Of a DNA stretch of 32,000 bases, positions 1,252 to 23,363 are shown piece by piece. Source of the DNA: Candidatus Syntropharchaeum caldarium (GTDB taxonomy: Archaea; Halobacteriota; Syntropharchaeia; Syntropharchaeales; Syntropharchaeaceae). Where the stretch lies: NCBI GenBank assembly GCA_001766815.1, contig LYOS01000003.1:85254-117253 (forward strand), given 5' to 3'. The stretch's first letter is position 1. Every line of letters starts with the position of its first letter. The position numbers and the translations under genes are program-made. A model generated the notes under the pieces. The model was not told the origin of the DNA. It searched no databases and saw nothing but the letters and a program-made list of their open reading frames with translations.

Positions 1252-1457
1252 ATTCTTCTCAAGCAACCACACCACCCACTTTTTTGGTGATCTTACTTCA
1301 CCCTGTTAATACGTACTGATTATTCAAGCTCAATTGATAAATACCTTCGCCTTCAACCGATCAACGATATTTGTTGCATCCCTGCTCGTTCTAATTTTGA
1401 AAATATCCCCTAAAGCATCACTTCACCATCAGGGTAAGAACACAACTATACCCACCG

Positions 1458-1463
1458 AAAAAA
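1458..1463 (-). terminator. oligo-T (T6) archaeal-type terminator candidate just downstream of repeat copy A
   Basis: On the minus strand the sequence reads TAG-aagatca-TTTTTT-cggtggg. The T6 run lies 7 nt after the relic stop codon at 1471..1473. Oligo-T tracts are the usual archaeal termination signal. Confidence 0.4.
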
Positions 1464-1600
1464 TGATCTTCTACTCTTCCCTCAACCTGTCCCCCACAGA
1501 TCGGATCTGATTCGCTGATTCATTCAGTCTTCCGCGCATCTTCATCAGTTCTCTACCAGCATCCCTCTCCTCTGATCCCTCTATCCGCGCAAGTTTTGTG
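1463..1600 (-). repeat. 138-bp direct repeat copy A: orphan copy of the last 43 codons, stop and 8 nt of 3' flank of the 343-aa gene at 5056..6087
   Basis: Base-by-base comparison with 5048..5185 gives 137/138 identical, with the single mismatch at 1576 (t) versus 5161 (c). The reading frame is closed upstream by a stop at 1612..1614, so this copy is a non-functional gene fragment. Confidence 0.9.
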
Positions 1601-1730
1601 TCCCCATCATTTTATCCCAGATCGCCCTTCCGCTTCCCCAATAAAGTTCTGTAGCCATATCCTCACAACAACCAAGCTCATCATACCTCGCTGGATCTCC
1701 TACATGATTCAGAAGCGGTATCATATCACC

Positions 1731-4502: not shown

Positions 4503-4918
4503 TTTATCAACACCTTCTTACCTATCACAGTTATTAAAAGACCAATCCCAATACCGATCATTATGCCGAAAAAGGTTGGCATTCCAACAAACCATATAAT
4601 AAAGAGAAGAAGTGACAATATACCTGCTAACGCAGTGGAAATTAAATGGGTAAGATATGCCGGTAAACAGATAACTTTTAAACTTTCTGGAAAAACAAAT
4701 TCATGCCCTGCAAATCCTTCTGCAAAGATCCCCCATGCGTAAAGAATTCCTGTGACAAGACCCCATACTCCGCCAACAATCGCCCCTCTTTTTGTCCACT
4801 TGCTCGTTTCAGTTTGCGATGGCTTATTTATCAAAAATATCAATAACAGACCAGGTAATCTTCTACCCAATATCATCCCCAGAACCACCTCTCCACCACG
4901 ACTATAAGAATGCTCCAT
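4499..4918 (-). CDS. small integral membrane protein (3-4 predicted TM helices), function unknown
   Basis: 139-aa ORF with several hydrophobic stretches (LPGLLLIFLI, AIVGGVWGLVTGILYAWGIF, ALAGILSLLLFIIWFVGMPTFFGIMIGIGIGLLITVIG). It has a 4-nt ATGA overlap with the 923-aa gene, and a TATA-like box lies 20-35 nt upstream. Confidence 0.7.
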   Translation of the reverse strand: MEHSYSRGGEVVLGMILGRRLPGLLLIFLINKPSQTETSKWTKRGAIVGGVWGLVTGILYAWGIFAEGFAGHEFVFPESLKVICLPAYLTHLISTALAGILSLLLFIIWFVGMPTFFGIMIGIGIGLLITVIGKKVLIK

Positions 4919-4938
4919 ACCAGTAGGAGTGGTGTGTG

Positions 4939-4953
4939 CTTATAATATATAAA
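4939..4953 (-). promoter_or_regulatory. TATA-box candidate for the 139-aa/923-aa gene pair (probably a leaderless or very short-leader mRNA)
   Basis: The minus strand reads tttatatattataag, centred about 28 nt upstream of the ATG at 4918. That is typical archaeal TATA-to-start spacing for leaderless transcripts. Confidence 0.5.
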
Positions 4954-4962
4954 CTTGACGAG

Positions 4963-4972
4963 CCCCCCCCCC
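4963..4972. repeat. C10/G10 homopolymer tract
   Basis: The sequence agCCCCCCCCCCag was counted directly. It lies 9 nt upstream (in the minus sense) of the TATA candidate at 4939..4953. Confidence 0.9.
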
Positions 4973-5047
4973 AGCGTTATGTTATATCGCCATACCCACC
5001 ATGAACCATCTTCAAAATCGCTATCAGATCACGCATCTCGCACGTAG

Positions 5048-5185
5048 ATGATCTTCTACTCTTCCCTCAACCTGTCCCCCACAGATCGGATCTGATTCGC
5101 TGATTCATTCAGTCTTCCGCGCATCTTCATCAGTTCTCTACCAGCATCCCTCTCCTCTGACCCCTCTATCCGCGCAAGTTTTGTG
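5048..5185 (-). repeat. 138-bp direct repeat copy B: the functional 3' end of the 343-aa gene plus 8 nt of flank
   Basis: 137/138 identical to 1463..1600. It encodes the C-terminal ...TKLARIEGSEERDAGRELMKMRGRLNESANQIRSVGDRLREE* of the 5056..6087 product. Confidence 0.9.
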
Positions 5186-6087
5186 GCAATAGTGTTTATC
5201 GATCGTGAAGTATCTTCGATAGTGGATGAGACCTCTTTAAGCTCAGAAGCGAGTGCCGCCATGTCAACTCCGCCTTCCTTACCCTTCAATGCATAGACAA
5301 AGCCACCACCGACTATGATACCAAGTACGATCGCAAGAATAACATAAAGGAGGACCGGGGGCGGAGCTATATCCTCAGATAGTGCTTTGTAATCCTCTGA
5401 GAGAATTAATGCCCATCCTGGATGCCCTTCTTCATAGAGACGTCTTATATTCGATTCAAGCTCACTCTCGCCGATTGTTTCACTCGCACTTGCAAGATTT
5501 GCTTCCATCTCCTCTCCTGCATCATCCAGAGCCTCACTTGTTGCGTAAAATTCCATGGACGGTACAAGCTTCTGCACGACTCGTTTTAGCGTACTGCCAT
5601 CTGTTGTGGTTCCGATCGTCAACGTCACATACACTCTCTTTTTCCCAATTCCTGTGAGATCCACGGACTCAAAATTAGGCTCTCTGACCTGTATCACGGC
5701 TTCGGGAACAGTTCCAGCGAGAATTATCGTTGGAGGGGTGAGTGCATGCTCCGCTTCTCCCTTCCATGTAATGACTGTGGCAGATGTATAGATATCCTGG
5801 CCATACTGCCATTCTGGATCTTCAAGGTTCGTCCGAAGCTCCAGGACGTACTCATCAGATATCGGATTATCCGTCTTCTCGATTGCGATGTGAAACTCAA
5901 GGTCATGCCCTTCAAGCTGTTCGCTATCTATGAAATCGGAGTACGGAATCTTACTACCTGTGTGCATATCGATGACGTATGACTTTGCCTCATCAATCCT
6001 CAGGATATCCTGGGCTGCAACACTACCACTCAGGATGTAAAAGAGTACAAACGCTATCAGAAGCGTCTTCTTCATTTTTTTCTTCAT
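5056..6087 (-). CDS. type-I membrane protein: signal peptide, ~220-aa ectodomain, single TM, ~75-aa cytoplasmic coiled-coil tail (last gene of the tubulin-like operon)
   Basis: 343-aa ORF. The signal peptide is MKKKMKKTLLIAFVLFYILSGSVAAQD. The TM segment is PPPVLLYVILAIVLGIIVGGGFVYAL, near aa 245-268. The C-terminus is charged and helical. It has a 4-nt ATGA overlap with the 863-aa gene. Confidence 0.8.
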   Translation of the reverse strand: MKKKMKKTLLIAFVLFYILSGSVAAQDILRIDEAKSYVIDMHTGSKIPYSDFIDSEQLEGHDLEFHIAIEKTDNPISDEYVLELRTNLEDPEWQYGQDIYTSATVITWKGEAEHALTPPTIILAGTVPEAVIQVREPNFESVDLTGIGKKRVYVTLTIGTTTDGSTLKRVVQKLVPSMEFYATSEALDDAGEEMEANLASASETIGESELESNIRRLYEEGHPGWALILSEDYKALSEDIAPPPVLLYVILAIVLGIIVGGGFVYALKGKEGGVDMAALASELKEVSSTIEDTSRSINTIATKLARIEGSEERDAGRELMKMRGRLNESANQIRSVGDRLREE

Positions 6088-8675
6088 TCTGCACGCTCCA
6101 TTATATCTCTTAGATCTTTTAACAGGAGCAGGATCTTTGCAAGAGGTGATCCAAGCTCCTTCATGAGCCTTATTGCATCCTTTGTGCCCATGTTGATCTT
6201 CTCAATCTCACTGTTTGCCTGAGCAATGTGGCGTATCACACTTGAAGTTGTCTCTTCTGAGGGGATTCTTCCAAGAAAGTCCTGTACGTTGTGTATCGCA
6301 GTCTGAACGTCGTCATTGAAGCTTTTGGAAAGGTTATCGATGACATCGATCAGGATCTCAACGTCTCTGTAGGTTTCATTCAGCATTCTGAGTAGTCTGT
6401 CACCATCTTCAAAGGCTTTTGCACCTTTTAACTTCTCTATCGTATCTTTAAAGTTTTTATCGATTGAGAGGTAGGTTTTGTACCCTTCCTCGAGCCCCTC
6501 CTGAAGTTTATCGATCTTAAGGCTGGCATTCTCAAGATCCTGTACCAGCATCGTTATATTTGCAATCGAGAAGCTTTCGGGTATGCGCATATCTTTTATT
6601 GCTTCTGCCATCTCGATACTTGAGATGAGGCGATCAAAGGAGTTTAAAGCTGATGCAAGCAGGATTGGTACCGTGGTCCAGATCGCTCTCTCTTCGATGA
6701 TCTCGTAATCTTTCCAGAAAGCTGTCACATTCTCGCGGTTTAAGTCGTCTTCGCCTGGTTTGTAGTCAATCCCTGTGATCACCGAGAACGGCTTTGGTGT
6801 CCCATAGAAGAGCGAATGGTGGCGCTGCAATTTGGAGAGATCGCTCGTGTCATACGCCTTCCCAAGCCACTCAAGCTCCCTTAGCCTTGGTGGAAGATCG
6901 GGGGCAGGTTGCCATGGCTGAAGACCGATCATGAGCGTGTAAATCGCGAAACTGTGAAGGCGTGCGGGTGTGTTGAGCTTCAGGATGTCAGCATCCTTTG
7001 CAAAGCGTTCTGTAACCATACTCCTGAAAGCAGTGTCACCGAGTCTCGCATCATCAAAGTTATCCATCCTGCTGCTCAGGACCGCTACAAAGTGCCCGAA
7101 CTTCTCCTCCTCATTTATCACATTGCCCTGTGCATCCAGTGCGAGGAAGCCGTACCTGTTCAGCGTCTCGAAGTACTTTGCAGTTGATGCGTTCTCGACC
7201 GATGGACGATAGTTCACCATCGGGTTGAAAATGATATCACCCTGATTGATCGGTGCGTGTGTCCACCTGAAGTATTCCTCCTCTCGCCCAAGTTTTCGCA
7301 TAATCTCCAGGAATGAGAGGTTCTTCAGGTCTTCACGATCTTTCTTTAGCTGCTTCACCTCATCCTCTGTAAGCTCGATCTGGTGATAACTTCTTGTGTT
7401 GAACGGCGAGGTAATCTCCCTCAGCGTCCTGTTCTTGATCGCCTTCAACTTCTCGATATCCTGCTCCACCATTCTGCGAGTCTCTTCGAGGTCGTTTGTG
7501 CGGATCTCAAGGTTAAAATCATCCTCCTTAAGCTCAGATAGCTTTCTCCTGGCACGATCAAGCCTGGACTTTGCATCTGATAGTGCTTTTCGATTAATAT
7601 ATGAAAATACTCCCTTTTTAGATTCGTAGGCGTCTATCTCTCGCTGGATCTCACTTATCTTCGCCTCAAGTCCCTGGAGTTCGATGCGCTTGGAATCGGC
7701 CTTATCACGGATCTCACCAAGCCTCGCGTCAATCTCGACAAGCTTCTCACGCATTCTTGGAATCTCATCCTCGATCTCATAGTAAAGCTGGAGTTTATCT
7801 GCCGGAAAGACGCACTCATAGTATCCAAGCGTTGAGAATCGACTCTCATACTCTCTTGCACGGTTCTGGAGATCGTTTAGATCGAGCCATTTGCCCTTTG
7901 CCTCGATGCCACCGCCTGGGACAAATCCGAGATCGAGCAGAAACCGTGAAATCGCCCTCTCAAGCTCGTCATCTCTATTCTGACCCTGTAGATCCCTTCC
8001 AAGCAGGAATACGATCTTGAATGGGTTTGAGTAGTTTTTATCCTCGATTATCATGTCCTGCTGGTGTGACATCAGAAAATGAAGCTCCTTTAAGGTTGCA
8101 TATCCATTTCCCATCGGTAAACCTGATTCGTTGCTTGATGGCAGGATCGTTATCCCGAAGATCAGAGGACCGGATCCAAACTGCTTTGTTATCCAGTCTC
8201 GTATATCGATCGCGATGTCAAGAAGCATGCTCGAACCTGTGCCACCACCGAGCGCAGATACCATCAGGATCAGAAAGTCCTTGCCACCCGTACGGTTACG
8301 AAGGTCTGAAGTGGCAGAGCCTATTGCATTCATGATGCGCTCCCTGTGGACGTTGTACATTGCTCTCCCGTATATCCTGTGCTGACCACATCCCGCCCCT
8401 GCTGCCATCAGGTATGGATCTGGGAGCCATCGATTCACGTTCTTCATAACGACCGTATCGGGCCTTGAGAGCACGATCTTTCTACGCTCCTCTATCTCTG
8501 TGCATGCATTTGCAGACGCCTGATCTGTATCAATGATCAGAAACTCCTCATTTCTTGGTATTCTATCACTTTTCAGGATGCTCAGTATGTTATTTACGAT
8601 CTTACTACCCTGCCCCCCTATTCCGATGATGAGTCTGTTTGTCGTGTCTTCTTTCTCAGCCACGTCCATACTCAC
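6084..8675 (-). CDS. large tubulin/FtsZ/CetZ-superfamily GTPase-like protein with a long coiled-coil/helical C-terminal extension
   Basis: 863-aa ORF with these tubulin/FtsZ-type motifs: LIIGIGGQGSKIVNNI (8601..8624, T1-like), AAGAGCGQHRIYGR (T3-like), ALGGGTGSS (8229..8249, tubulin/FtsZ signature GGGTG[ST]), GITILPSSNESG..GYATLKEL (T5-like, close to CetZ GILPGSDEGG.YTLNAA) and KWLDLNDLQN (T7-like). From about aa 300-420 the sequence is heptad-rich (EKLVEIDARLGEIRDKADSKRIELQGLEAKISEIQREIDAY...). The remaining ~440 aa are helical with no recognised motif. Confidence 0.75.
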   Translation of the reverse strand: MSMDVAEKEDTTNRLIIGIGGQGSKIVNNILSILKSDRIPRNEEFLIIDTDQASANACTEIEERRKIVLSRPDTVVMKNVNRWLPDPYLMAAGAGCGQHRIYGRAMYNVHRERIMNAIGSATSDLRNRTGGKDFLILMVSALGGGTGSSMLLDIAIDIRDWITKQFGSGPLIFGITILPSSNESGLPMGNGYATLKELHFLMSHQQDMIIEDKNYSNPFKIVFLLGRDLQGQNRDDELERAISRFLLDLGFVPGGGIEAKGKWLDLNDLQNRAREYESRFSTLGYYECVFPADKLQLYYEIEDEIPRMREKLVEIDARLGEIRDKADSKRIELQGLEAKISEIQREIDAYESKKGVFSYINRKALSDAKSRLDRARRKLSELKEDDFNLEIRTNDLEETRRMVEQDIEKLKAIKNRTLREITSPFNTRSYHQIELTEDEVKQLKKDREDLKNLSFLEIMRKLGREEEYFRWTHAPINQGDIIFNPMVNYRPSVENASTAKYFETLNRYGFLALDAQGNVINEEEKFGHFVAVLSSRMDNFDDARLGDTAFRSMVTERFAKDADILKLNTPARLHSFAIYTLMIGLQPWQPAPDLPPRLRELEWLGKAYDTSDLSKLQRHHSLFYGTPKPFSVITGIDYKPGEDDLNRENVTAFWKDYEIIEERAIWTTVPILLASALNSFDRLISSIEMAEAIKDMRIPESFSIANITMLVQDLENASLKIDKLQEGLEEGYKTYLSIDKNFKDTIEKLKGAKAFEDGDRLLRMLNETYRDVEILIDVIDNLSKSFNDDVQTAIHNVQDFLGRIPSEETTSSVIRHIAQANSEIEKINMGTKDAIRLMKELGSPLAKILLLLKDLRDIMERAE

Positions 8676-9109
8676 TTGCCCCCACGTAATTCATAGGATC
8701 TTGTTCGCTCTCGCATCTCCTCCAGTTCATCGGCAAAGTAGGCAAGCTCTCGCTCACCCTCTCTTATCTCACTCTCGACGCCGCCAACAACGCTATCCAT
8801 CGTTCGTGCCTGGGCAAGAACCCCTTTTGAACTCTTCTCGCCCCTGAACCAGACCAGTATACCGATTAAACCAAGCAGAACCCCGATTATGATTGTGCCA
8901 TAGACAAGCGCAAAGATTGCAGCTTCAGAGAGAGATGTGAAGTAGCGATCGCTGTATTCATTCAATACAAATGCAATCGAGAGAAAGATCACCCCGATAA
9001 TCGGAAACAGAAGCAGCATCTTCTCAACTTCCAGTCTCAAAAGCATGATGACAATCTCAAGAACGAATACGACAATTAGTATCAGTGTGATAATGCTGAG
9101 TGCATCCAT
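8672..9109 (-). CDS. small polytopic membrane protein with a short charged C-terminal helix (tubulin-like operon)
   Basis: 145-aa ORF with about 4 hydrophobic segments and the C-terminus ESEIREGERELAYFADELEEMRERTRSYELRGGK. A GAGGAG RBS (9116..9121) lies 6 nt upstream of the ATG. The stop overlaps the 863-aa gene start by 4 nt. Confidence 0.7.
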   Translation of the reverse strand: MDALSIITLILIVVFVLEIVIMLLRLEVEKMLLLFPIIGVIFLSIAFVLNEYSDRYFTSLSEAAIFALVYGTIIIGVLLGLIGILVWFRGEKSSKGVLAQARTMDSVVGGVESEIREGERELAYFADELEEMRERTRSYELRGGK

Positions 9110-9149
9110 GAATATCTCCTCAAGTTAGATACACGTTAATCGTTTAAAT

Positions 9150-10379
9150 TTATTTGCTGATAACATCCAGCCTGTCCCGGTCATATTCCAACCTGGAGTT
9201 TGCATCTTCGATGAGTGCTTCATACCTCAGCATAAACTCACCGAGCTGCTCGATCGTTTGTAGATCAAGAACATCCTGCATCCGATCGGCTCCCCAGTAA
9301 TCGACAGGATACTCTTCAGATGATGGTTCCTTATCTCTTATCTTTGCTTCAAGATCGAATATATTCTTATAAATCGCTTCAAGGGTCTCGATGGCTGTAA
9401 CTCGCAACTCTGCTTCGCATTCTTTCAATATATTCTGCTGTGATGGGGAGTCTGTATGCTCGATCCTCGCCTCTATCGCACGAACTTTCTCACCATCTGC
9501 GACCTTTTTAACGACACCGACCATCTCCAGCAGCATCTCCTTGTACTGATTGAACCCATCAGCGGTCTCATCGATGATGCGTTCCATCACATTCCTGAGG
9601 ATGCCCGCGGCAGCATCATAGTTTCCCCGCTCCATATTCTGCTCTGCAATCTTGATATCAGTCCTGATCCTTGAACGATCCCTTATCGTCTTTGAGCCTG
9701 ATTCCACTGCTTTCACCTCACGAAGCGAAGATTCGATCGCGTCATCAAAGATCGAGGTCAGATCACCCAAAAAGTGGGCGAGGTTCAGGATATCGATCTC
9801 AATATCTTCAAGGATCATCGCTTCAATACGCCTCATCTGATCGCCTATCCCTCTGTAACCCGCTGCTTCAAGCTCTCTCAGACGATCAAGATACCTTTCT
9901 CCCTGCTCAATGACCTTTCCATAGATCGTTGGTTCGTATCGATCTTTGATGCTCTCAATCTTCAGTTTGATCTCTTCGATATCAGAAGATCTCGCCTTTT
10001 TAAGCTTCGCTTTATCAAAATGGACTTCACCGTTTACAAGACACCCGATTGAGGATAGATCTGCCTTTACGGCGCTAAGTTCATCCCTGAACCCCCTTGT
10101 GACAATGTGATACTGGTTTTCAAAGTTAGAAAGCTCCCGCAAAAGTTCGATCAGGTTGTGAGCGATGCGCTTAAGATCCCGCTCAAGCACCCGGGTTTTT
10201 ATACTTTTTCCGCGCACTTCGGTCAGGTAGATTATGAAAAACGAGACGATTACCATCACAGGGATTAGAAGCAGGATTAACGTTATCGCAAGATCCGATC
10301 CCGTACCAAATAGCAGGAGAATTCCAATGAGGATTAAAATACCGAATAATATCGATCCGATTATCCCATATCGCCTCAT
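9150..10379 (-). CDS. membrane-anchored (2 N-terminal TM) all-helical/coiled-coil protein (tubulin-like operon)
   Basis: 409-aa ORF. The N-terminus MRRYGIIGSILFGILILIGILLLFGTGSDLAITLILLLIPVMVIVSFFIIYL gives two TM helices. The remaining ~340 aa are charged and helical, with no enzymatic motif. It has an ATGA overlap with the upstream 299-aa gene. Confidence 0.8.
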   Translation of the reverse strand: MRRYGIIGSILFGILILIGILLLFGTGSDLAITLILLLIPVMVIVSFFIIYLTEVRGKSIKTRVLERDLKRIAHNLIELLRELSNFENQYHIVTRGFRDELSAVKADLSSIGCLVNGEVHFDKAKLKKARSSDIEEIKLKIESIKDRYEPTIYGKVIEQGERYLDRLRELEAAGYRGIGDQMRRIEAMILEDIEIDILNLAHFLGDLTSIFDDAIESSLREVKAVESGSKTIRDRSRIRTDIKIAEQNMERGNYDAAAGILRNVMERIIDETADGFNQYKEMLLEMVGVVKKVADGEKVRAIEARIEHTDSPSQQNILKECEAELRVTAIETLEAIYKNIFDLEAKIRDKEPSSEEYPVDYWGADRMQDVLDLQTIEQLGEFMLRYEALIEDANSRLEYDRDRLDVISK

Positions 10380-11275
10380 ACTCGCCCACCAATCTGCTTA
10401 TGTGCTTTGAATTCCTCAAATGAGTACGTAAAGATCACTGTTATCGATACGATATTGCGTCTCGTCTTCCTGATATCGATCGTTGATCTCGTGGTATATC
10501 TCTGCATGAGATCCTCCACCAGCGCCTGATCGATCGTATCAACTCTTTCTTCCGGGACATTTATCAATGCAGCGCCCTTCACCGATCCAATCGGGTCATC
10601 AAATACGGTTAGCTTCTCAAGTGCAACTCTGAGCATCGTCCTTATGTCGATCTCATGGTGTGGGATTATCGGGATAATATAACCAAGTAACCCCTTTGTA
10701 AGCTCTGATGAACGCGCAACCGCAGCATAGCCTGCTTCCCCCTCAAATGAAAGGCTTTTGAGCACGTCATCGATCGATTGCGCCTCGAATATATCCTTCA
10801 GGATCGATGCCACATACTCGTTATACTGATCATAGTAGTTCTCAAAATAGGGGAGATGAGATAGTTTCTCGTTGTCAACGATTATCACACCATTTGCCCT
10901 CGTTTTAAGTTCATTGAGAGCTTTGAATGCCAGATTGATCGAATCACGATCTGTTCTTCGTGTTGCTGGAATTATACCAACGACATATCGATGAAAACCT
11001 GCATCTTTCGCTATTTTCGCAAGATCCAGTGTCACAGTTCCTCCAATTTCCCCTCCAAGTCCTGCAAAAAGGAAGACGTTTTTCACGCCATTCTTGAGAT
11101 GTTTTTTGAAAAGTTCTTCACTTTCAGGCGATTTGTGGCTGATTGTAACGCTATCTGCGATTTTTTTCATCCCTGGATGGTAACGCCATAGTGCATCAAG
11201 CAGGCGGCCTCCAGCAGTCCCGATGCCAGCGATGAGATTGGGTCTTGCCACACATATCTCTTTACCGTATTCCAT
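10376..11275 (-). CDS. compact FtsZ/CetZ-like protein with a degenerate nucleotide-binding signature (first gene of the tubulin-like operon)
   Basis: 299-aa ORF with these FtsZ-type motifs: NLIAGIGTAGGRLLD (G-box 1), FLFAGLGGEIGGTVTLDLAKIAK (11036..11062 encodes GLGGEIGGT where FtsZ has GGGTGTG), YVVGIIPA....NGVIIVDNEKL (FtsZ has VVTKPF...DTLIVIPNDKL) and VKGAALINVPEE (FtsZ has AKGVLINITGG). It has no C-terminal tail. Confidence 0.7.
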   Translation of the reverse strand: MEYGKEICVARPNLIAGIGTAGGRLLDALWRYHPGMKKIADSVTISHKSPESEELFKKHLKNGVKNVFLFAGLGGEIGGTVTLDLAKIAKDAGFHRYVVGIIPATRRTDRDSINLAFKALNELKTRANGVIIVDNEKLSHLPYFENYYDQYNEYVASILKDIFEAQSIDDVLKSLSFEGEAGYAAVARSSELTKGLLGYIIPIIPHHEIDIRTMLRVALEKLTVFDDPIGSVKGAALINVPEERVDTIDQALVEDLMQRYTTRSTIDIRKTRRNIVSITVIFTYSFEEFKAHKQIGGRV

Positions 11276-11311
11276 AAAACTATATCTGCTCTGCTAACTC
11301 CCGGGTTGGAT

Positions 11312-12373
11312 CTAACGACTCATGCCAGGCACCAGAAACACCCTGTCATCGATCTTAACAATCCTGACCTCTTCTCCTGCACCCTCCGTTAAAAACAGTG
11401 GCTTTTTGATCGTAACAGCCCTGAACGTCTCAGGATCAAGTATTTCTACCTCCTTCTCATAAACCATGAGAAGCACAGCCTCCTTCGCCTCAGAAGCCTT
11501 CATGCAGAATTTCAACTCTGATAAATCTATTTTTCCTGCCTGTGTGCCGTCTTCGAGGTAGATTCCACCTGCATGTTTTGCTATCGAGGTAATAAGCATA
11601 ATTTTTCCCATGTGATATGCGATATCGCCCACAACAAGTCCAGGAAGCCTGACAACGATCGTCAAACGGTAGATGTTCTTTCCATTACGCTTTCCTACAA
11701 GTTTAGGTGATGTAATGCTCTTTCCACCAAATTGCTTGATGATTTCCTTTGCTCCGTCCTGTGCAGCGCCCTGATCACCAACATAGATATCAACCCCTGT
11801 CTTTACGTCGCGGAGTTTTGTCACAAACGAGTCATGATGTGCAATACGATCATCAAGGATCCTGAGGCAGGCATCGATCTCCTCATCTGTGGGTATGCGG
11901 TCTTTGGCCCTTATCTGGACTGTTGCCTCGTAATAACCCCCCGCTATCCTGCTGCATCGTGTGCAACTCTCACGGATAATTTTAACCTCGATATCCTGTT
12001 CCTTTTCAAACGGTTGATCGCAGATCCTGCCACTGATGTGAAGACGCGCTGGAATGAGACCGACAGGTGCATCCCCAATCTCACAGTCAAGCGAAAGTTC
12101 AAACTCATCGAGCAACGCTGAGATCTTCACAGTCTTCAGGATCTCTTCCCGGATAGACGTTGTGAGATCGCCATATACCCATCTTCCATGGCAATAATGT
12201 GCACCACAATTTGGACAAAATCTGATTTCTACTCGTTGTATCTCCTCGATTGGGCTGAATGCCCTGGTGAAGCAATTCCTGCAGACACCATCTATGAGTT
12301 CCTCGACATCAGCCCCGCAATTTGGACAGAATTTTAAGTCAGTTACCCCCTTCATCGTGGTTCGTCTCATCAT
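11312..12373 (-). CDS. NMD3-family protein (archaeal homolog of the 60S export adaptor NMD3, COG1499-type)
   Basis: CxxC pairs are FCPNCGADVEELIDGVCRNCF, FCPNCGAHYCHGRW and CTRCSRIAGGYYEATVQIR, the last containing the NMD3-typical YEAxxQxR motif. The ORF track extends it to 12427, but that part overlaps the topA 3' end. Internal ATGs at 12373, 12370 or 12355 (MKGVTDLKFCPNCG) are more plausible starts, so the exact start is uncertain. Confidence 0.85.
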   Translation of the reverse strand: MMRRTTMKGVTDLKFCPNCGADVEELIDGVCRNCFTRAFSPIEEIQRVEIRFCPNCGAHYCHGRWVYGDLTTSIREEILKTVKISALLDEFELSLDCEIGDAPVGLIPARLHISGRICDQPFEKEQDIEVKIIRESCTRCSRIAGGYYEATVQIRAKDRIPTDEEIDACLRILDDRIAHHDSFVTKLRDVKTGVDIYVGDQGAAQDGAKEIIKQFGGKSITSPKLVGKRNGKNIYRLTIVVRLPGLVVGDIAYHMGKIMLITSIAKHAGGIYLEDGTQAGKIDLSELKFCMKASEAKEAVLLMVYEKEVEILDPETFRAVTIKKPLFLTEGAGEEVRIVKIDDRVFLVPGMSR

Positions 12374-14387
12374 TTTCTTTCTTCTTTGAATCCTGCCATG
12401 CCATGAAGTTGCAGAGTGGGCATCCAAGATCCCATGGACGTTTTCCCTTATTTATGATCCTCAATTTACTCATATTGCCGTGTTCCTTACAGACCTCGCC
12501 TGTTACGATTATTTTACCTGTCTTTGGTAGGGGCAGAGAATAAGTACAATCAGGATAACCAGAGCAGCCAACGAACCTTGATCCTCTCCTTGATCTGCGA
12601 ATTATAAGTTCCTTTCCACAGTCTGGACATTCTCCAACGACCATGTCGGCCCTCATACCTTCTTTGATTGTTGTTGCAATCGCCTCTTCATTCGATTTCA
12701 GGTCCTCAAATATCTGATTTAAAATCTTTCGTGACTCTCCGATGATCTCTTCTTCACTCACATTGCCATCTGCAATTCTATCCATCGCTTCTTCAAGCAT
12801 ACGAGTCATTTCTGGATCTGTGATCATCGAAGCATACTTTTCAAGGGCATCAATCACGCCATAAGCCTTTCTGGTTGGTTTCATTGGATTCCCAACAATA
12901 TAAGCCCTTGAATACAACTTTGAGATCGTTTCATGCCTTGTACTTTTTGTTCCAAGCCCGAGTTCCTCCATCTTCTTGATAAGTCGCCCCTGGCCATAGC
13001 GGGATGGTGGCTTTGTCTCCTTTTCGAGCACAGCAATCTCGATCAGGTTGAGCAGATCACCAACTGAAAGTTGAGGCAGGATGCGCTCTTCGATCTTCAA
13101 ATATGGATAAAATGCTCGCCATCCATATTCTTCGATAATTGCACCGTTTACCTTGAATGGTTCATCCTTTATATCGATCTTAACGCCCATCGTAAGCCAT
13201 TGTGCAGGCTCTGCGAGTGTTGCAAAGAAGCGCCTGACAACAAGCTCATAAATCTTCCATTCGTCCTCTTTCAGATCTGATTTCGCTACATAGGATACCG
13301 GATAGATCGGGGGATGATCGGTCGTCTCTTTCTTGCCGCGTGATGGTTTAAGTTCGTTCTTCGCAAGAAGCTTTTTCGCCTCTTCCTTGAATACACCCTT
13401 CTTAAAGAGGGCTACGATACCTCTGAGGTCGATGCTCTCTGGATACACCGTGTTATCGGTTCGTGGATATGAGATAAAACCGTTCACATAGAGCGTTTCA
13501 GCTATTCTCATCGCATTTGCGGCTGAAAATCCGATTGAACTTGCAGCACGAAGGAACTCCGTTGTGTTGAACGGTATTGGCGGGCGATCAACCTTCTTCT
13601 TCTTTTTAATATCGGTTACTCGCCCCTCCTTTGCACCTTCAAGCTTTTTCAGGCATTTTTCAACCTCATCATGCTCGAGAAATCTGTTCTTTGCGTGTTT
13701 TGCCTCAAATCCATCGAATTTTGCATGAATTTCCCAGTATGGTGTGGGAACAAACGACTCGATCTCCCGCTCACGATCCACAAGCAGTGCAAGTGTGGGC
13801 GACTGAACCCTCCCTGCTGAGAGGAAGTTTGACCCAAGCGAACGCGATACAAGCGAGATAAATCTCGTAAGTGATGCACCCCAGACCAGATCGATAATCT
13901 GACGTGTCTCTGCTGAGTGAGCGAGGTTATAATCAAGTTCGACGAGGTTCGAGAACGCTTTCTCAATCTCCTGTTTTGTGATCGCACTGTAACGTGCGCG
14001 ATTCACTCTAACCGACTCATTCTGTTCTTTTATGATCTTAAGCGCCTCAAGTCCAATGAGTTCGCCTTCCCGATCAAAGTCTGTTGCGATCGTAACCTCA
14101 TCAGCCTCTGGCGCAATCTCCTTCAGAAGTGAGATGATCTTGTCATTTAGTGGCGTTGTGACGATCTCGGCATTAACCAGAGACGCCGCATCGACCTCCT
14201 CCCATCTGCTGTACTGCGGTGGAAAGTCCACACCAATGATATGCCCGCTAAGTCCGATAACAGCAAGATCTTCATTGATATAGAAGAGATTCGCACCCTT
14301 TATACGCTTCTGCTTTGCTTTACCCCCAGATAAGATCTCTGATATTCGCTTTGCGGTATTGTGCTTCTCTGTTATGATATATCGCAT
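12339..14387 (-). CDS. topA: DNA topoisomerase, type IA (archaeal TopA/topoisomerase I-III family)
   Basis: 682 aa. It has a Toprim N-terminus (MRYIITEKHNTAKRISEIL, TDFDREGE), the active-site Tyr motif GFISYPRTDN, and C-terminal zinc ribbons (CPDCGKELIIRRSRRGSRFVGCSGYPDCTYSLPLP; CKEHG...CPLC). Confidence 0.95.
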   Translation of the reverse strand: MRYIITEKHNTAKRISEILSGGKAKQKRIKGANLFYINEDLAVIGLSGHIIGVDFPPQYSRWEEVDAASLVNAEIVTTPLNDKIISLLKEIAPEADEVTIATDFDREGELIGLEALKIIKEQNESVRVNRARYSAITKQEIEKAFSNLVELDYNLAHSAETRQIIDLVWGASLTRFISLVSRSLGSNFLSAGRVQSPTLALLVDREREIESFVPTPYWEIHAKFDGFEAKHAKNRFLEHDEVEKCLKKLEGAKEGRVTDIKKKKKVDRPPIPFNTTEFLRAASSIGFSAANAMRIAETLYVNGFISYPRTDNTVYPESIDLRGIVALFKKGVFKEEAKKLLAKNELKPSRGKKETTDHPPIYPVSYVAKSDLKEDEWKIYELVVRRFFATLAEPAQWLTMGVKIDIKDEPFKVNGAIIEEYGWRAFYPYLKIEERILPQLSVGDLLNLIEIAVLEKETKPPSRYGQGRLIKKMEELGLGTKSTRHETISKLYSRAYIVGNPMKPTRKAYGVIDALEKYASMITDPEMTRMLEEAMDRIADGNVSEEEIIGESRKILNQIFEDLKSNEEAIATTIKEGMRADMVVGECPDCGKELIIRRSRRGSRFVGCSGYPDCTYSLPLPKTGKIIVTGEVCKEHGNMSKLRIINKGKRPWDLGCPLCNFMAWQDSKKKENDETNHDEGGN

Positions 14388-14554
14388 CTACTCTCCCTCT
14401 CTATTTTACTCCCACATCTTTTACAGATGCAGAAGGTACCCTCAAGTTTCACCGACTTGAAGCAGAGCCTCACTTCTGGATCTTCGATGATTCGGATCTC
14501 CTTTGAGCCACATGCTGGGCATCTTATCTCCACGAAAAATCTTTTGGAGTGCAA
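14372..14554 (-). CDS. putative small zinc-ribbon protein (CPxCG...CxxCG), overlapping the topA start by 16 nt
   Basis: 60-aa ORF with a TTG start at 14554; an alternative GTG at 14533 gives 53 aa (MEIRCPACGSK...CKRCGSKIE). It has four Cys in two knuckles. The TATA-like box at 14557..14565 sits about 28 nt upstream of the GTG, which fits a leaderless mRNA. There is no homology evidence. Confidence 0.4.
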   Translation of the reverse strand: MHSKRFFVEIRCPACGSKEIRIIEDPEVRLCFKSVKLEGTFCICKRCGSKIERESRCDIS

Positions 14555-14556
14555 TC

Positions 14557-14565
14557 ATATATAAG
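14557..14565. promoter_or_regulatory. TATA-like element in a divergent intergenic region (small Zn-ribbon/topA leftward, CoA-ligase gene rightward)
   Basis: atatataag is the only AT-rich TATA-like element in the 46-nt gap between the divergent genes. Confidence 0.35.
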
Positions 14566-14603
14566 ATAGATCGATAAAAGAGCAGTTATCGGTAAAGGGT
14601 TTG

Positions 14604-16025
14604 ATGATGAACTGTGAGATCAATGGCATGTTTGATCCCGAATCGCTCGTTGTGATCGGTGCATCAAGCAAGCGAGATTATTACTTTCTGAGGTGTCACG
14701 AGAATTTTAAAGGTAAACTCTATGCCGTCAATCGGAACGAAGAAGCAGGACGGGAGGTTATTCCAGGTGTCAAATTCTACAGGAGCGTGCTTGACATACC
14801 TGAAAAGATCGATTTCGCCATCATCGAGGTTCCAGGAGAAGAGATACCAGCAATCATCAGAAAGTGTGGAAAGCGAGGTGTGAAGTTTGCAACGGTCTTT
14901 GCATCAGGCTACAGTGAGCTTGGTACAGAAGCTGGAAAACACGCAGAAGAGGAACTCATCGAGGCGGCAAATGCTGCAGGGATTAAAATAATAGGTCCAA
15001 ACTGTATGGGGATCTACTATCCTGCAAAAGGCATGAGTTTCAGGTTTGATCTTTCAACAGAATCTGGTGAAGTATCATTTGTATCACAGAGTGGTGGACA
15101 TGCCCTGAACTTCTCGTTACTTGGAAGTATTCATGGTATAAAATTTGATAAGGTGATAAGCTATGGCAATGGGGCGATGATCGATAGCACCGACCTGATC
15201 GAGTACCTTATGCACGATCCGTCGACAGGAATCATCGCAGCCTACATCGAGGGTGTGAAGGATGGGAGAAGGTTTCTGAGTGTCCTGAAAGAGGCGGCAC
15301 AGATCAAACCTGTTATAATATGGAAAGGCGGAGTAACAGATGCAGGCGCATCCGCTGTCACGTCTCACTCTGGTTCACTGGCAGGTGATGCACGGATATG
15401 GGATGCGGCACTGAAGCAGGCTGGTGTGATCAGGGTGGATGATATGGATGAACTGATAGATGTCACAAGCACGCTCACAACTTCTCCACTTCCAGAAAAC
15501 AGGCGCGTTGGAATCATCTCGATCAGTGGTGGGCAGTGTGTTGTGCTCGCTGATCTTGCATCCAGATATGGCTTCAGGATACCTCCGCTTGGGGATGTGA
15601 CACGCGAAAAGCTCTCAAAGCTCATGCCCAACGTCGGAACAAGCATCAAAAACCCGATAGATGGTGCTGCATCATGGGCAAATCTGGGTACCGTGAAGGA
15701 GACGATAAGGCTTGTGATGGAGGATGAAGGGATCGATTCAGTGCTTATTGAGATCTCAATTCACTACATGCTTCATATTTTCTATCATAACGAGGAGGAC
15801 AGAATGAGTAGACTCTATGAAATCCTCTGTGAGCTTAAAAACCAATCGAGAAAGCCCTTCTTTGTGATACTCTCGCCTTCGAACTACTGGCATGAACGGA
15901 GACTGCTCGAAGAAAAACTTATTGAAAGCGGCGTTCCGGTATTCCCAGGATTTAAACGAGCTCTTAAAACACTTAAAAACCTGCTCCACTATAAAGAAAG
16001 GGGAGGAAGATCACTTTATGAATAA
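14604..16025 (+). CDS. ADP-forming acyl/acetyl-CoA synthetase alpha-subunit-like protein (CoA-binding plus succinyl-CoA-ligase-like flavodoxin domains)
   Basis: The CoA-binding N-terminus is LVVIGASSK..., followed by IIGPNCMGIY, SQSGG and the phosphohistidine-type segment VTSHSGSLAGD. The track begins at TTG 14601, and ATG 14604 is the first ATG. No ATP-grasp beta subunit is adjacent. Confidence 0.85.
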   Translation: MMNCEINGMFDPESLVVIGASSKRDYYFLRCHENFKGKLYAVNRNEEAGREVIPGVKFYRSVLDIPEKIDFAIIEVPGEEIPAIIRKCGKRGVKFATVFASGYSELGTEAGKHAEEELIEAANAAGIKIIGPNCMGIYYPAKGMSFRFDLSTESGEVSFVSQSGGHALNFSLLGSIHGIKFDKVISYGNGAMIDSTDLIEYLMHDPSTGIIAAYIEGVKDGRRFLSVLKEAAQIKPVIIWKGGVTDAGASAVTSHSGSLAGDARIWDAALKQAGVIRVDDMDELIDVTSTLTTSPLPENRRVGIISISGGQCVVLADLASRYGFRIPPLGDVTREKLSKLMPNVGTSIKNPIDGAASWANLGTVKETIRLVMEDEGIDSVLIEISIHYMLHIFYHNEEDRMSRLYEILCELKNQSRKPFFVILSPSNYWHERRLLEEKLIESGVPVFPGFKRALKTLKNLLHYKERGGRSLYE

Positions 16026-23194: not shown

Positions 23195-23204
23195 GCGCTC
23201 CGCT

Positions 23205-23279
23205 GCTCCGGTAGTGTAGCTCGGCCAATCATTCCGGCCTTTCGAGCCGAAGACCCGGGTTCAAATCCCGGCCGGAGCA
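23205..23279 (+). tRNA. tRNA-Glu (anticodon UUC)
   Basis: Manual cloverleaf, 75 nt. The acceptor GCTCCGG pairs with CCGGAGC. The anticodon arm is CCGGC-CTTTCGA-GCCGA, and the loop CT-TTC-GA gives UUC. The T arm is CCGGG-TTCAAAT-CCCGG, and the discriminator is A. No CCA is encoded. Confidence 0.9.
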
Positions 23280-23288
23280 TGGAAATAC

Positions 23289-23363
23289 GCTCCGTTAGTG
23301 TAGCTCGGCCAATCATGCAGGGCTCTCAATCCTGCGACAGGGGTTCAAATCCCCTACGGAGCA
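23289..23363 (+). tRNA. tRNA-Glu (anticodon CUC)
   Basis: Manual cloverleaf, 75 nt. The acceptor GCTCCGT pairs with ACGGAGC. The D arm is identical to the upstream tRNA. The anticodon arm is CAGGG-CTCTCAA-TCCTG, and the loop CT-CTC-AA gives CUC. The T arm is AGGGG-TTCAAAT-CCCCT. No CCA is encoded. Confidence 0.9.

What the first reader, a model, noticed from the sequence alone, without database searches (positions are those of the whole stretch)
10376..11275. Compact 299-aa FtsZ-fold protein with a degenerate nucleotide-binding signature (GGEIGGT instead of GGGTGTG): possible pseudo-GTPase partner
The protein is colinear with FtsZ through both domains: G-box 1, T4 region, the IIVDNEKL strand and VKGAALINVP in the C-terminal domain. 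However, the T4 glycine-rich signature at 11036..11062 encodes GLGGEIGGT, with Glu and Ile where Gly and Thr contact the phosphates. The NxDxxD T7 synergy loop is not evident (only SIDDV). There is also no C-terminal tail of the kind FtsZ uses to bind SepF/FtsA-type anchors. As the first gene of an operon that also encodes an apparently intact tubulin-like GTPase, it may act as a non-catalytic capping, nucleating or heterodimer partner, loosely analogous to alpha/beta tubulin asymmetry.
Basis: partly seen in the sequence, partly recalled or inferred. Interest (0 to 1): 0.65.

Follow-up and report, generated by a model that had tools for sequence, protein, structure and literature searches.

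The report
Tubulin-fold protein lacking its GTP pocket
This gene encodes a well-conserved relative of the cell-skeleton proteins FtsZ/CetZ that has lost the loops that normally hold GTP, and that always sits next to a membrane-anchored helical partner in alkane- and methane-oxidising archaea, so it probably acts as a static, membrane-tethered scaffold rather than a dynamic filament.

Summary
A confident AlphaFold model (pLDDT 87) matches FtsZ/CetZ in both domains (TM 0.64-0.70). The degeneracy is a family trait, not noise. All ~100 relatives, found only in Syntrophoarchaeum and ANME-1, lack a canonical T4 loop; the ANME-1 proteins have lost three more residues and most of the glycines there. 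All also lack the T2-S3-T3 segment (~45-60 aa). An invariant Arg-Arg replaces the T5 'EG', and only one T7 acidic residue is mostly kept. The gene is under purifying selection (dN/dS 0.22). A neighbour-joining tree nests the family inside an unnamed sister family of CetZ that has intact GGGTG[SC]G.

The one invariable neighbour is not the 863-aa FtsZl1-type GTPase. It is the next gene, a two-TM helical protein whose start overlaps the stop in 38/38 loci and whose homologue also follows the intact relatives. Two divergently transcribed envelope proteins lie upstream everywhere except in this window. The FtsZl1 module follows in 23 of 36 informative loci.

The pseudo-GTPase reading is supported by sequence. 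The reading as a heterodimer partner of the 863-aa protein is possible but not specifically supported. This is a new variant of a known kind, and no biochemistry exists.

The parts
10376..11275 (-). Zl299: a 299-aa tubulin/FtsZ-fold protein with a degenerate nucleotide site (the finding).
   Evidence: dN/dS is 0.22.
11207..11236 (-). T1 / G-box 1, LIAGIGTAGG. G19 and G22 are (nearly) invariant; the third Gly is variable.
11120..11146 (-). Site of the family-wide deletion. S2 (TISH) runs almost directly into H3, and the T2 loop, S3 and T3 loop (~45-60 aa in relatives) are absent.
   Evidence: Alignment with intact relatives and E. coli FtsZ. The AF2 secondary-structure order shows no S3 or H2.
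11036..11062 (-). Degenerate T4 loop, GLGGEIGGT, in place of GGGTG[ST]G.
   Evidence: The ANME-1 orthologues are 3 aa shorter here and carry D/E plus S/C.
10949..10969 (-). T5 region, PATRRTD. R106-R107 are (nearly) invariant and replace the (H/x)EG of intact relatives.
10793..10891 (-). S6-T6-H6/H7 block, IIVDNEKLSHLPYFENYYDQYNEYVASILKD. This is the most conserved stretch of the family. D134, N135, H140, L141, P142, Y151, N152, Y154 and D161 are (nearly) invariant.
10760..10783 (-). T7 remnant, AQSIDDVL. The position aligned to FtsZ D209 is S/P/Q/H. The position aligned to D212 (D170) is D/E in 86 of 100 members.
10646..10732 (-). S7 plus a family-specific insertion after it, at the place of the M-loop: R-x-SELTKG-x-x-GY-x-x-P...H...D. 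The sequence is highly conserved but the model confidence is low (residues 196-202).
9150..10379 (-). TM409: an N-terminal hydrophobic hairpin (about residues 2-57) followed by a helical domain of ~350 aa. Its start overlaps the Zl299 stop (ATGA).
   Evidence: No Pfam, PDB or PADLOC family matches.
8672..9109 (-). TM145: a small polytopic membrane protein with a charged C-terminal tail, and the first gene of the second sub-operon. Its position resembles family 'A2' upstream of archaeal FtsZl1 genes.
   Evidence: Compared by position only with PMC2875224 supplement 5.
6084..8675 (-). FtsZl1/Tubulin_2 protein (863 aa): an N-terminal GTPase domain with intact T1-T4 and a T7-like WLDLNDL, then a coiled coil and a helical C-terminal domain.
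   Evidence: dN/dS is 0.08.
5056..6087 (-). SP343: a signal/N-terminal TM segment, an ectodomain, a TM segment and a coiled-coil tail. Its start overlaps the FtsZl1 stop (ATGA). It is the last gene of the block.
5062..11264 (.). A 6.2-kb block, 98.5% identical to Ca. Syntrophoarchaeum sp. JAOQII010000001.1. Both flanks differ from that genome.

Best explanation
SHOWN. The ORF encodes a selectively maintained member of the tubulin/FtsZ superfamily. The family is restricted to Syntrophoarchaeum and ANME-1 (Methanophagales). In a neighbour-joining tree it is nested inside an unnamed sister family of CetZ whose other members have intact GTPase motifs. Along this lineage four changes occurred. The T2-S3-T3 segment was deleted. 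The T4 glycine loop decayed to GGE[IVL]GG in Syntrophoarchaeum and was shortened by 3 aa, with most glycines lost, in ANME-1. The T5 'EG' became an invariant Arg-Arg. The first T7 aspartate was lost. Constraint has shifted from the former nucleotide-binding domain to the H6/H7 block, the loop after S7 and the C-terminal domain.

INFERRED. The protein no longer binds or hydrolyses GTP in the canonical way. It works as a nucleotide-independent structural or adaptor subunit rather than a dynamic polymer.

SHOWN. Its constant partner is the next gene, TM409, a two-TM hairpin followed by a long helical domain. The stop and start codons overlap in 38/38 loci. TM409 is homologous to the gene that follows the intact relatives in Hydrothermarchaeota-type contigs. 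Two divergently transcribed type-I envelope proteins (~317 and ~826 aa) lie upstream in every locus with enough flank except this window and its twin contig. They have weak but significant homologues next to the intact relatives.

INFERRED. Zl299 and TM409 form a stoichiometric, membrane-tethered cytoplasmic platform of a module that spans the cell envelope. In 23 of 36 informative loci, including this one, a second coupled module (TM145, FtsZl1, SP343) follows. The platform may position, seed or cap the GTP-competent FtsZl1 polymer.
For: Fold: pLDDT 87; FtsZ/CetZ, TMq up to 0.70.

Family-wide degeneracy. T4 positions 77-78 are deleted in 95/95 ANME-1 proteins and position 79 in 92/95. R106/R107 are kept in 99/100 and 96/100 members.

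Deletion of T2-S3-T3: alignment; secondary structure.

Purifying selection: one search gives dN/dS 0.22, against 0.21-0.26 for TM409 and 0.08 for FtsZl1.

Shift of constraint: one search gives 8% invariant positions for residues 1-135 and 21% for residues 136-299.

Descent from intact relatives. The Zl family is monophyletic in 100/100 bootstraps and Zl plus the full-length family in 99/100, while the full-length family alone is never monophyletic (0/100). Its nearest neighbours, P0107 and P0110, have half-degenerate T4 loops (GGVTGSG, GGTLGCG), though that placement has only 55% support. P0103 matches CetZ1 4b46 over its full length at E 2e-19.

Partner: searches show adjacency in all loci. 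One search shows overlaps of -4, -8 or -14 nt in 38/38. One search gives hhalign probability 95.5%, E 1.5e-8, over 291 columns against the 454/475-aa proteins of L047/L052.

Wider cluster.

Distribution: 41 genome loci, nearly all titled Syntrophoarchaeum, ANME-1/Methanophagales or a broader archaeal rank that includes them; one contig sits in a MAG titled Nitrosotalea; 105 proteins; only 32 representative clusters below E 1e-10 among 1.84 billion.
Against: No binding or activity data exist, and I could not inspect model coordinates or run multimer predictions.

G19 and G22 of T1, N135 of T6 and N152 of H7 are still conserved. The new Arg-Arg could bind phosphate, so non-canonical binding of a nucleotide or another anion is not excluded.

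An acidic residue at the position aligned to FtsZ D212 is kept in 86% of members.

The Zl299-TM409 interaction is inferred from gene order only.

In this window the two upstream envelope genes are absent, so here the module is either incomplete or split across the genome.
Confidence: 0.5

Rival explanations
1. Zl299 is a non-catalytic longitudinal partner of the 863-aa FtsZl1 GTPase, acting as cap, seed or heterodimer half in the manner of alpha/beta-tubulin or BtubA/B asymmetry. Either its T7 face docks on the GTP of FtsZl1, or the T7 of FtsZl1 docks on its empty top face and gives a non-hydrolysable, stable end.
For: The two genes share an operon in 23 of 36 informative loci, including both Syntrophoarchaeum genomes. 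Related clusters with intact relatives also pair two tubulin-fold genes: L047 and L052, and three in Halorussus L050. An acidic residue at the position aligned to D212 is kept in 86/100 members. The H6/H7 block, which in FtsZ lies on the nucleotide-side interface, is highly conserved. The partial correlation of evolutionary distances between Zl299 and FtsZl1 is 0.55, though that test is weak.
Against: FtsZl1 is not adjacent in 13 loci (about 10 distinct), where Zl299 and TM409 persist. The two genes lie in separately coupled sub-operons 24-277 nt apart. FtsZl1 carries its own invariant T7-like WLDLNDL and all GTP loops, so it needs no T7 supplied in trans. FtsZl1 evolves almost three times more slowly (dN/dS 0.08 against 0.22). 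FtsZl1 proteins also occur widely without any Zl299-like gene (PMC2875224).
Confidence: 0.25
2. Zl299 still binds a nucleotide, or another phosphorylated ligand, in a remodelled pocket. T1 and the new Arg-Arg would replace T4, and the protein would polymerise on its own as a slow or non-hydrolysing filament, tethered by TM409.
For: The T1 glycines, N135 and N152 are conserved, and Arg-Arg was gained exactly where T4 was lost. Both faces of the fold keep conserved blocks.
Against: The T2 and T3 loops, which hold the gamma-phosphate and Mg, are deleted. T4 in ANME-1 carries acidic residues and is 3 aa shorter. The N-terminal domain is the least constrained part of the protein.
Confidence: 0.17
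3. It is a decaying or functionless duplicate, a pseudogene in the making, and the motif degeneracy is neutral erosion.
For: The Pfam score is marginal (36.5 against 33), and several ANME-1 members have no recorded PF00091 hit.
Against: ORFs of constant length are intact in 41 genomes. dN/dS is 0.22. Eighteen columns are invariant and about 65 more nearly invariant across 103 sequences. Gene order and translational coupling are conserved. The AF2 fold is confident.
Confidence: 0.02

Closest known systems
CetZ (archaeal tubulin-superfamily cell-shape proteins, e.g. H. volcanii CetZ1/CetZ2, PDB 4b46/4b45; M. thermophila CetZ 3zid)
   Same: These are the best structural and sequence matches: TMq 0.69-0.70 and 4b45 as the top PDB sequence hit. 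The intact relative P0103 aligns to CetZ1 over its whole length. There is no FtsZ-type C-terminal anchor peptide. The family is the sister clade of CetZ in the NJ tree.
   Different: No member hits CetZ_C (PF21011), neither the 103 sequences of alignment A2 (100 Zl299-family proteins plus three intact relatives) nor the six further relatives tested. T2-S3-T3 are deleted and T4 is degenerate. The loop after S7 is specific to this family. The protein has a dedicated two-TM helical partner and envelope-protein neighbours not reported for CetZ (PMC9856176).
Unnamed full-length sister family of CetZ (P0103-P0133, P0213-P0268). Source names include Hydrothermarchaeota, Halorussus, Altiarchaeales and Micrarchaeota. 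They are called 'non-canonical tubulin-superfamily proteins' at best.
   Same: Zl299 is nested within it (99% bootstrap). The two share family motifs: VDNxxI, YNxY[IV]A, the loop after S7, and T[KR]RN[IL]xxxT. The gene neighbourhood is also shared: two divergently transcribed SP+TM proteins, and in the Hydrothermarchaeota-type loci L047/L052 also the TM-helical partner and a second tubulin.
   Different: Those proteins are 370-540 aa long, with intact T1-T7 (GGGTG[SC]G, GGFGKNP, VIDxxD) and an acidic C-terminal tail. Zl299 has lost all of these.
FtsZ
   Same: It has the two-domain fold, recognisable T1, T4 and T6 positions, and the VDN strand.
   Different: TIGR00065 scores 30 bits against a cut-off of 295. 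There is no GGGTG[ST]G, no NxDxxD and no C-terminal peptide, and 45-60 aa of the GTPase domain are missing.
FtsZl1-centred 'membrane remodelling' operons (Makarova and Koonin 2010, PMC2875224)
   Same: The 863-aa neighbour has the FtsZl1 architecture and hits PF13809. As in archaeal FtsZl1 operons, a small membrane protein lies just upstream of it and membrane proteins surround it. An 'uncultured archaeon' FtsZl1 is already in their list. I suspect it is from ANME-1, but that was not checked.
   Different: That paper lists no second tubulin-fold gene in its FtsZl1 neighbourhoods. The vWA protein, GTPase and OmpA components it describes are absent here. FtsZl1 here shows a clear T7-like motif.
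Alpha/beta-tubulin and BtubA/B heterodimers (own knowledge)
   Same: Two diverged tubulin-fold paralogues are encoded or used together, one of them catalytically asymmetric.
   Different: Both tubulin partners still bind GTP and have complete loops. No evidence here shows that Zl299 contacts the second tubulin-fold protein.
Plant ARC3, an FtsZ-like domain protein that regulates chloroplast FtsZ (PMC12232670; that its FtsZ-like domain lacks GTPase function is from my own knowledge)
   Same: It is precedent for an FtsZ-derived domain that has given up polymer and GTPase function and acts on, or beside, a true FtsZ-family GTPase.
   Different: ARC3 is eukaryotic, fused to MORN repeats and evolutionarily unrelated to this case. 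It is a diffusible regulator, not a protein coupled to a membrane anchor.

Membership tests
Tubulin/FtsZ superfamily | Two-domain tubulin/FtsZ fold: a Rossmann-like N-terminal domain, helix H7 and a C-terminal domain. | tested here: met
   The AF2 model has pLDDT 87. Foldseek gives E 5e-15 and TMq 0.64-0.70 to FtsZ/CetZ over about 320 columns. One edge strand (S3) is missing.
Tubulin/FtsZ superfamily | Pfam PF00091 at or above the gathering score. | tested here: met
   36.5 bits against 33, over residues 53-140 only. 95 of 103 alignment members hit it at E <= 0.001.
Tubulin/FtsZ superfamily (as GTPases) | Signature GGGTG[ST]G (T4). | tested here: not met
   The motif is GGEIGGT here. It is GGE[IVL]GG[TR] in Syntrophoarchaeum, and 3 aa shorter with D/E and S/C in 95 ANME-1 proteins.
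Tubulin/FtsZ superfamily (as GTPases) | T2 and T3 loops that contact the gamma-phosphate and Mg. | tested here: not met
   About 45-60 aa including T2, S3 and T3 are absent in all family members.
Tubulin/FtsZ superfamily (as GTPases) | T7 synergy loop NxDxxD, or an equivalent catalytic acid. | tested here: inconclusive
   The first Asp position is S/P/Q/H. The second is D/E in 86/100 members and D170 here.
Tubulin/FtsZ superfamily (as GTPases) | Binds and hydrolyses GTP. | not testable with these tools
   This needs ITC or mant-GTP binding and GTPase assays on purified protein.
FtsZ proper | NCBIfam TIGR00065 at or above its cut-off, and a C-terminal anchor-binding peptide. | tested here: not met
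   30 bits against 295.2. The protein ends right after the last helix.
CetZ | CetZ_C domain (PF21011). | tested here: not met
   No hit in any of the 103 sequences of alignment A2. True CetZ proteins score 158-205 bits.
Unnamed full-length sister family of CetZ | Phylogenetic placement within the family. | tested here: met
   NJ tree, 300 columns, 100 bootstraps. Zl plus the full-length family is recovered in 99/100, and the full-length family alone in 0/100. The method is distance-based only.
Unnamed full-length sister family of CetZ | Shared neighbourhood: two divergently transcribed SP+TM proteins, and a TM-helical gene downstream. | tested here: met
   up317 against 308 gives E about 1e-8, and up826 against 674 gives 1e-5 to 1e-8. 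TM409 against 454/475 gives hhalign probability 95.5%. The relevant loci are L047, L052 and L054; L054 has the upstream pair but no TM-helical gene downstream. In this window itself the upstream pair is missing.
FtsZl1 / Tubulin_2 (applies to the 863-aa neighbour, not to the finding) | [quoted passage not shown] | tested here: met
   PF13809 scores 95.9 bits against 27. Weak matches to coiled-coil families (best E 0.0022) fall at about residues 300-450. The architecture is as described in PMC2875224.

The most novel reading that the evidence does not exclude
A tubulin-fold protein that carries no nucleotide has been kept throughout Syntrophoarchaeum and ANME-1 as the membrane-anchored seed or cap (through TM409) of a GTP-driven FtsZl1 filament. 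It would work inside a machine that spans the cell envelope and includes three type-I envelope proteins. This would be a prokaryotic counterpart of the division of labour between nucleator and polymer, or between the alpha and beta subunits, in eukaryotic tubulin. It could organise the unusual cylindrical envelope, or the cell-cell contacts, of these syntrophic alkane and methane oxidisers.
Probability: 0.2. Interest if true: 0.8.

Novelty: new variant of a known kind. Interest (0 to 1): 0.6.

Why it matters
Every characterised member of the FtsZ/tubulin superfamily works through GTP-dependent assembly. Here a family has been kept under purifying selection in more than 40 species-level genomes after it deleted or rewrote most of the GTP site. 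It would show what the tubulin fold can do without a nucleotide. Because close relatives with intact sites share the same gene neighbourhood, it also offers a natural before-and-after pair for experiments.

The work also defines a conserved cluster of four to seven genes, with one or two tubulin-fold proteins, a dedicated membrane anchor and three envelope proteins. The cluster occurs in ANME-1 and Syntrophoarchaeum, which matter for the methane and alkane cycles and whose cell biology is almost unknown. I found no mention of this family in the searchable literature.

Tried and rejected
- First AF2 run with only 13 sequences: pLDDT 58 and an unreliable C-terminal domain. It was replaced by the 103-sequence run.
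- First NJ tree: invalid, because the Kimura correction produced NaN above p = 0.85 and gave a caterpillar tree in input order. It was discarded and redone with Poisson distances. An earlier Biopython attempt timed out.
- My own hypothesis of 'complementary halves', in which FtsZl1 lacks T7 and Zl299 supplies it: rejected, because FtsZl1 here has an invariant WLDLNDL and all GTP loops.
- Mirror-tree and partial correlations of evolutionary distances among the seven cluster genes: all raw r values are 0.81-0.98. The partial values rest on 14 genomes and do not discriminate.
- The 826-aa protein of L002 as a hidden FtsZl1: no similarity.
- TM409 against Pfam, NCBIfam, PADLOC, PHROGs and a PDB profile search: only matches driven by composition, to designed helical repeats.
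- Anti-phage defence or viral origin: no PADLOC or PHROG hits for Zl299, and none among IMG/VR contigs.
- Pseudogene reading: rejected.
- Literature searches for ANME-1 with CetZ, and for a pseudo-GTPase FtsZ: nothing relevant.
Full report
**1. The observation**

The minus-strand ORF 10376..11275 is 299 aa long. Residues 72-80, GLGGEIGGT, are encoded at 11036..11062, exactly as reported.

Pfam finds only PF00091 Tubulin, just above threshold (36.5 bits against 33) and only over residues 53-140. NCBIfam FtsZ (TIGR00065) scores 30 bits against a cut-off of 295. The best PDB sequence hits are CetZ2 (4b45) and several FtsZ entries, at E of about 1e-4.

An AlphaFold2 model from a 13-sequence alignment was poor (pLDDT 58). 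With 103 sequences it became confident, with pLDDT 87 and pTM 0.87. Foldseek then matched FtsZ and CetZ structures over about 320 columns, with E 5e-15 to 1e-13 and TMq 0.64-0.70; the best by TM-score are CetZ 3zid, 4b45 and 4b46. The tubulin/FtsZ fold in both domains is therefore confirmed.

**2.

A word-indexed search found 12 relatives. A profile search found 105. A scan of one genome per species found 41 loci. An exhaustive profile search of 1.84 billion representatives found only 32 clusters below E 1e-10. The close family occurs only in Ca. Syntrophoarchaeum (60-99% identity to the query) and in ANME-1, that is Methanophagales and Methanospirareceae (32-40% identity). One of the 41 contigs sits in a MAG titled Nitrosotalea; I did not follow this up. 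The window itself is 98.5% identical over 6.2 kb to a Ca. Syntrophoarchaeum sp. MAG.

None of these proteins has GGGTG[ST]G:
- Syntrophoarchaeum proteins have GGE[IVL]GG[TR].
- In all 95 ANME-1 proteins the loop is shorter (positions 77-78 are deleted in 95/95, position 79 in 92/95) and reads G/S, then D/E/N, then S/C/G.

An alignment with intact relatives and E. coli FtsZ shows that the whole family lacks about 45-60 residues between S2 and H3. That segment carries the T2 loop, strand S3 and the T3 loop. The AF2 secondary-structure order agrees, with no S3 or H2.

Other positions:
- The T5 '(H/x)EG' of intact relatives is replaced by Arg-Arg. R106 is kept in 99/100 members and R107 in 96/100.
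- T6 Asn135 and H7 Asn152 are retained.
- In T7, the position aligned to FtsZ D209 is S/P/Q/H. The position aligned to D212 is D/E in 86/100.

Across 20 orthologues, residues 1-135 are 8% invariant and residues 136-299 are 21% invariant. The most conserved parts are IIVDNxxxxHLPxFExYYxxYNxYxAS, an insertion after S7 (SELTKGxxGYxxP...H...D) at the position of the tubulin M-loop, and TxRNIxxIT.

**3. The gene is functional**

ORFs of constant length are intact in 41 genomes. The median pairwise dN/dS (Nei-Gojobori) is 0.22. That is similar to its membrane neighbours (0.14-0.30) and higher than FtsZl1 at 0.08.

**4. Where it comes from**

The next-best hits, P0103 to P0105 (396 aa, 27% identity), and about 60 further clusters form a full-length family with intact motifs: GVGQCGG, INSxxxDL, GGFGKNP, GGGTG[SC]G, LPAxxEG, VIDxxD and an acidic tail. 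Source names place them in Hydrothermarchaeota, Halorussus, Altiarchaeales, Micrarchaeota and others.

P0103 aligns to CetZ1 (4b46) over its full length at E 2e-19. However, neither this family nor Zl299 hits CetZ_C (PF21011), which true CetZ proteins hit at 158-205 bits.

An NJ tree (300 columns, 100 bootstraps) gives these results:
- Zl299 family monophyletic: 100.
- Syntrophoarchaeum and ANME-1 subclades: 100 each.
- Zl299 family plus full-length family: 99.
- Full-length family alone: 0.
- CetZ is the sister group.

The nearest full-length neighbours are P0107 and P0110, with only 55% support. They have half-degenerate T4 loops (GGVTGSG, GGTLGCG) and eroded T3 regions, which suggests stepwise loss. 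This is a distance tree only, and maximum likelihood is still needed.

**5. Gene neighbourhood**

A tblastn census over 49 loci defines this cluster:

up826(-) up317(-) | Zl299 -> TM409 -> [TM145 -> FtsZl1 -> SP343]

- TM409 follows Zl299 in every locus with sequence available. Stop and start overlap by 4, 8 or 14 nt in 38/38 loci, and by ATGA in the window.
- TM409 has an N-terminal hydrophobic hairpin (about residues 2-57) and a helical domain of about 350 aa. It matches no known family.
- It is homologous to the 454/475-aa proteins that follow the intact relatives in L047 and L052: hhalign probability 95.5%, E 1.5e-8, 291 columns.
- up317 and up826 each have a signal or N-terminal TM segment, an ectodomain and a C-terminal TM segment. 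They are divergently transcribed upstream in every locus with enough flank, except the window and its twin contig L049. They have weak but significant homologues upstream of the intact relatives.
- The three-gene extension is present in 23 loci and absent in 13, about 10 of them distinct. It is a separate coupled unit. TM409 to TM145 is a gap of 24-277 nt, TM145 to FtsZl1 is 2-16 nt in most loci, and FtsZl1 to SP343 is an ATGA overlap in 15/20.

The 863-aa protein is an FtsZl1/Tubulin_2 protein (PF13809, 95.9 bits) with the architecture described by Makarova and Koonin (PMC2875224). Its N-terminal domain is 67% invariant across 21 orthologues. The invariant positions include GIGGQGS, AGAGCGQ, ALGGGTGSS and a T7-like WLDLNDL. 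The Hydrothermarchaeota-type clusters also hold a second tubulin-fold gene, and a Halorussus cluster holds three.

**6. Interpretation**

Shown: Zl299 is a conserved tubulin-fold protein whose GTP-contacting loops are deleted or rewritten. It descends from intact relatives and is always coupled to a two-TM helical partner.

Inferred: it no longer uses GTP canonically and serves as a static subunit tethered to the membrane by TM409, as part of a module that spans the envelope. The FtsZl1 sub-operon, where present, supplies the GTP-driven element.

The specific heterodimer or cap relation to the 863-aa protein is neither excluded nor favoured. Three points speak for it: frequent co-operonic linkage, recurrent pairing of two tubulin-fold genes in related clusters, and the retained acidic T7 residue. 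Four points speak against it: the 13 loci without FtsZl1 nearby, the separate translational coupling, the self-sufficient motif set of FtsZl1, and the very different evolutionary rates.

Non-canonical ligand binding through T1 and the new Arg-Arg cannot be excluded. I could not inspect coordinates or run multimer models.

**7. Known or new**

Sources name these proteins 'hypothetical', 'Tubulin-like protein CetZ' or 'cell division GTPase FtsZ'. The CetZ survey (PMC9856176) and the FtsZl1 paper do not describe them. Full-text searches for ANME-1 with CetZ, or for a pseudo-GTPase FtsZ, found nothing relevant.

I rate it a new variant of a known kind: a nucleotide-site-degenerate offshoot of the tubulin/FtsZ superfamily with a dedicated membrane partner. 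Interest is 0.6. It would surprise specialists and can be tested with recombinant proteins, but the mechanism is still inferred.

**8. Context of the window**

Only 5062..11264, which holds the five genes from Zl299 to SP343, is collinear with the Syntrophoarchaeum MAG. One break falls at about codon 5 of Zl299 (N-terminus MEYGKE here, MSHIFKW there). The other falls at the stop of SP343. Here NMD3 and topoisomerase I lie upstream in place of up317 and up826. An independent ENA contig reproduces this arrangement.

Noticed in passing
window 5062-11264 against L005 10000-16202: The five-gene block from Zl299 to SP343 is 98.5% identical to Ca. Syntrophoarchaeum sp. JAOQII010000001.1, but both flanks differ. 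The upstream break is at about codon 5 of Zl299 (N-terminus MEYGKE here, MSHIFKW there). Here NMD3 and topoisomerase I replace the conserved divergent up317/up826 pair. An independent ENA contig (L049) shows the same arrangement, so this is probably a real operon-sized relocation and not a misassembly.
   Followed up: partly
window 1463-1600 and 5048-5185: A 138-nt direct repeat (99% identical) copies the 3' end of the SP343 gene. The two copies flank 3.6 kb that carry a 923-aa PKD-domain protein (1731-4502, minus) and a 139-aa membrane protein (4499-4918, minus). This looks like an insertion with duplication of the target gene's end.
   Followed up: partly
window 12-1230: A degenerate array of 99/114-nt (33/38-aa) repeats, with 9 or more copies at 60-80% identity, runs off the window start. 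It probably encodes a repeat protein on the minus strand. In L005 a TPR-like gene follows SP343.
   Followed up: no
window 6084-8675 (residues about 258-270 of the 863-aa protein): The FtsZl1 protein has an invariant WLDLNDLQNRA with the D-x-x-D spacing of the FtsZ T7 loop. The 2010 description of FtsZl1 could not identify T6-H7 elements with confidence.
   Followed up: partly
L047 10001-13838, L052 7001-11031, L054 4754-9149: Intact-GTPase relatives sit in the same kind of cluster: ~677-aa and ~310-350-aa SP+TM proteins divergently transcribed upstream, then tubulin A. In L047 and L052 a TM-helical protein (454/475 aa) and a second tubulin-fold protein (424/446 aa) follow. In L054 a PcrB gene follows instead, and a 431-aa tubulin-fold gene lies further upstream. 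This appears to be an undescribed, recurrent archaeal module with two tubulin-fold proteins.
   Followed up: partly
L050 (Halorussus litoreus QLVG01000060.1) 1375-15206: One co-directional cluster holds three PF00091 genes (581, 401 and 406 aa), interleaved with large proteins that have no known domains.
   Followed up: no
P0107 (L053) and P0110 (L054, L055): The nearest full-length neighbours of the Zl299 family have partly degenerate T4 loops (GGVTGSG, GGTLGCG) and eroded T3 regions. They may be evolutionary intermediates in the loss of the GTP site, but the tree support is only 55%.
   Followed up: partly
window 11312-12427 and 12339-14387 (minus): The longest NMD3 ORF (TTG start) overlaps the 3' end of the topoisomerase I gene by about 89 nt. 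An internal Met (the MMRRTTMKG region) is a more likely start. Only 36 nt separate the NMD3 stop from the Zl299 ATG.
   Followed up: no
window 5056-6087 (SP343): There is a weak PHROG hit to an Rz-like spanin (phrog_739, E 4.6e-4) over the TM and coiled-coil tail. It is probably driven by composition or architecture.
   Followed up: no
window 23204-23363: Two adjacent tRNA-Glu genes (anticodons TTC and CTC) lie on the plus strand.
   Followed up: no
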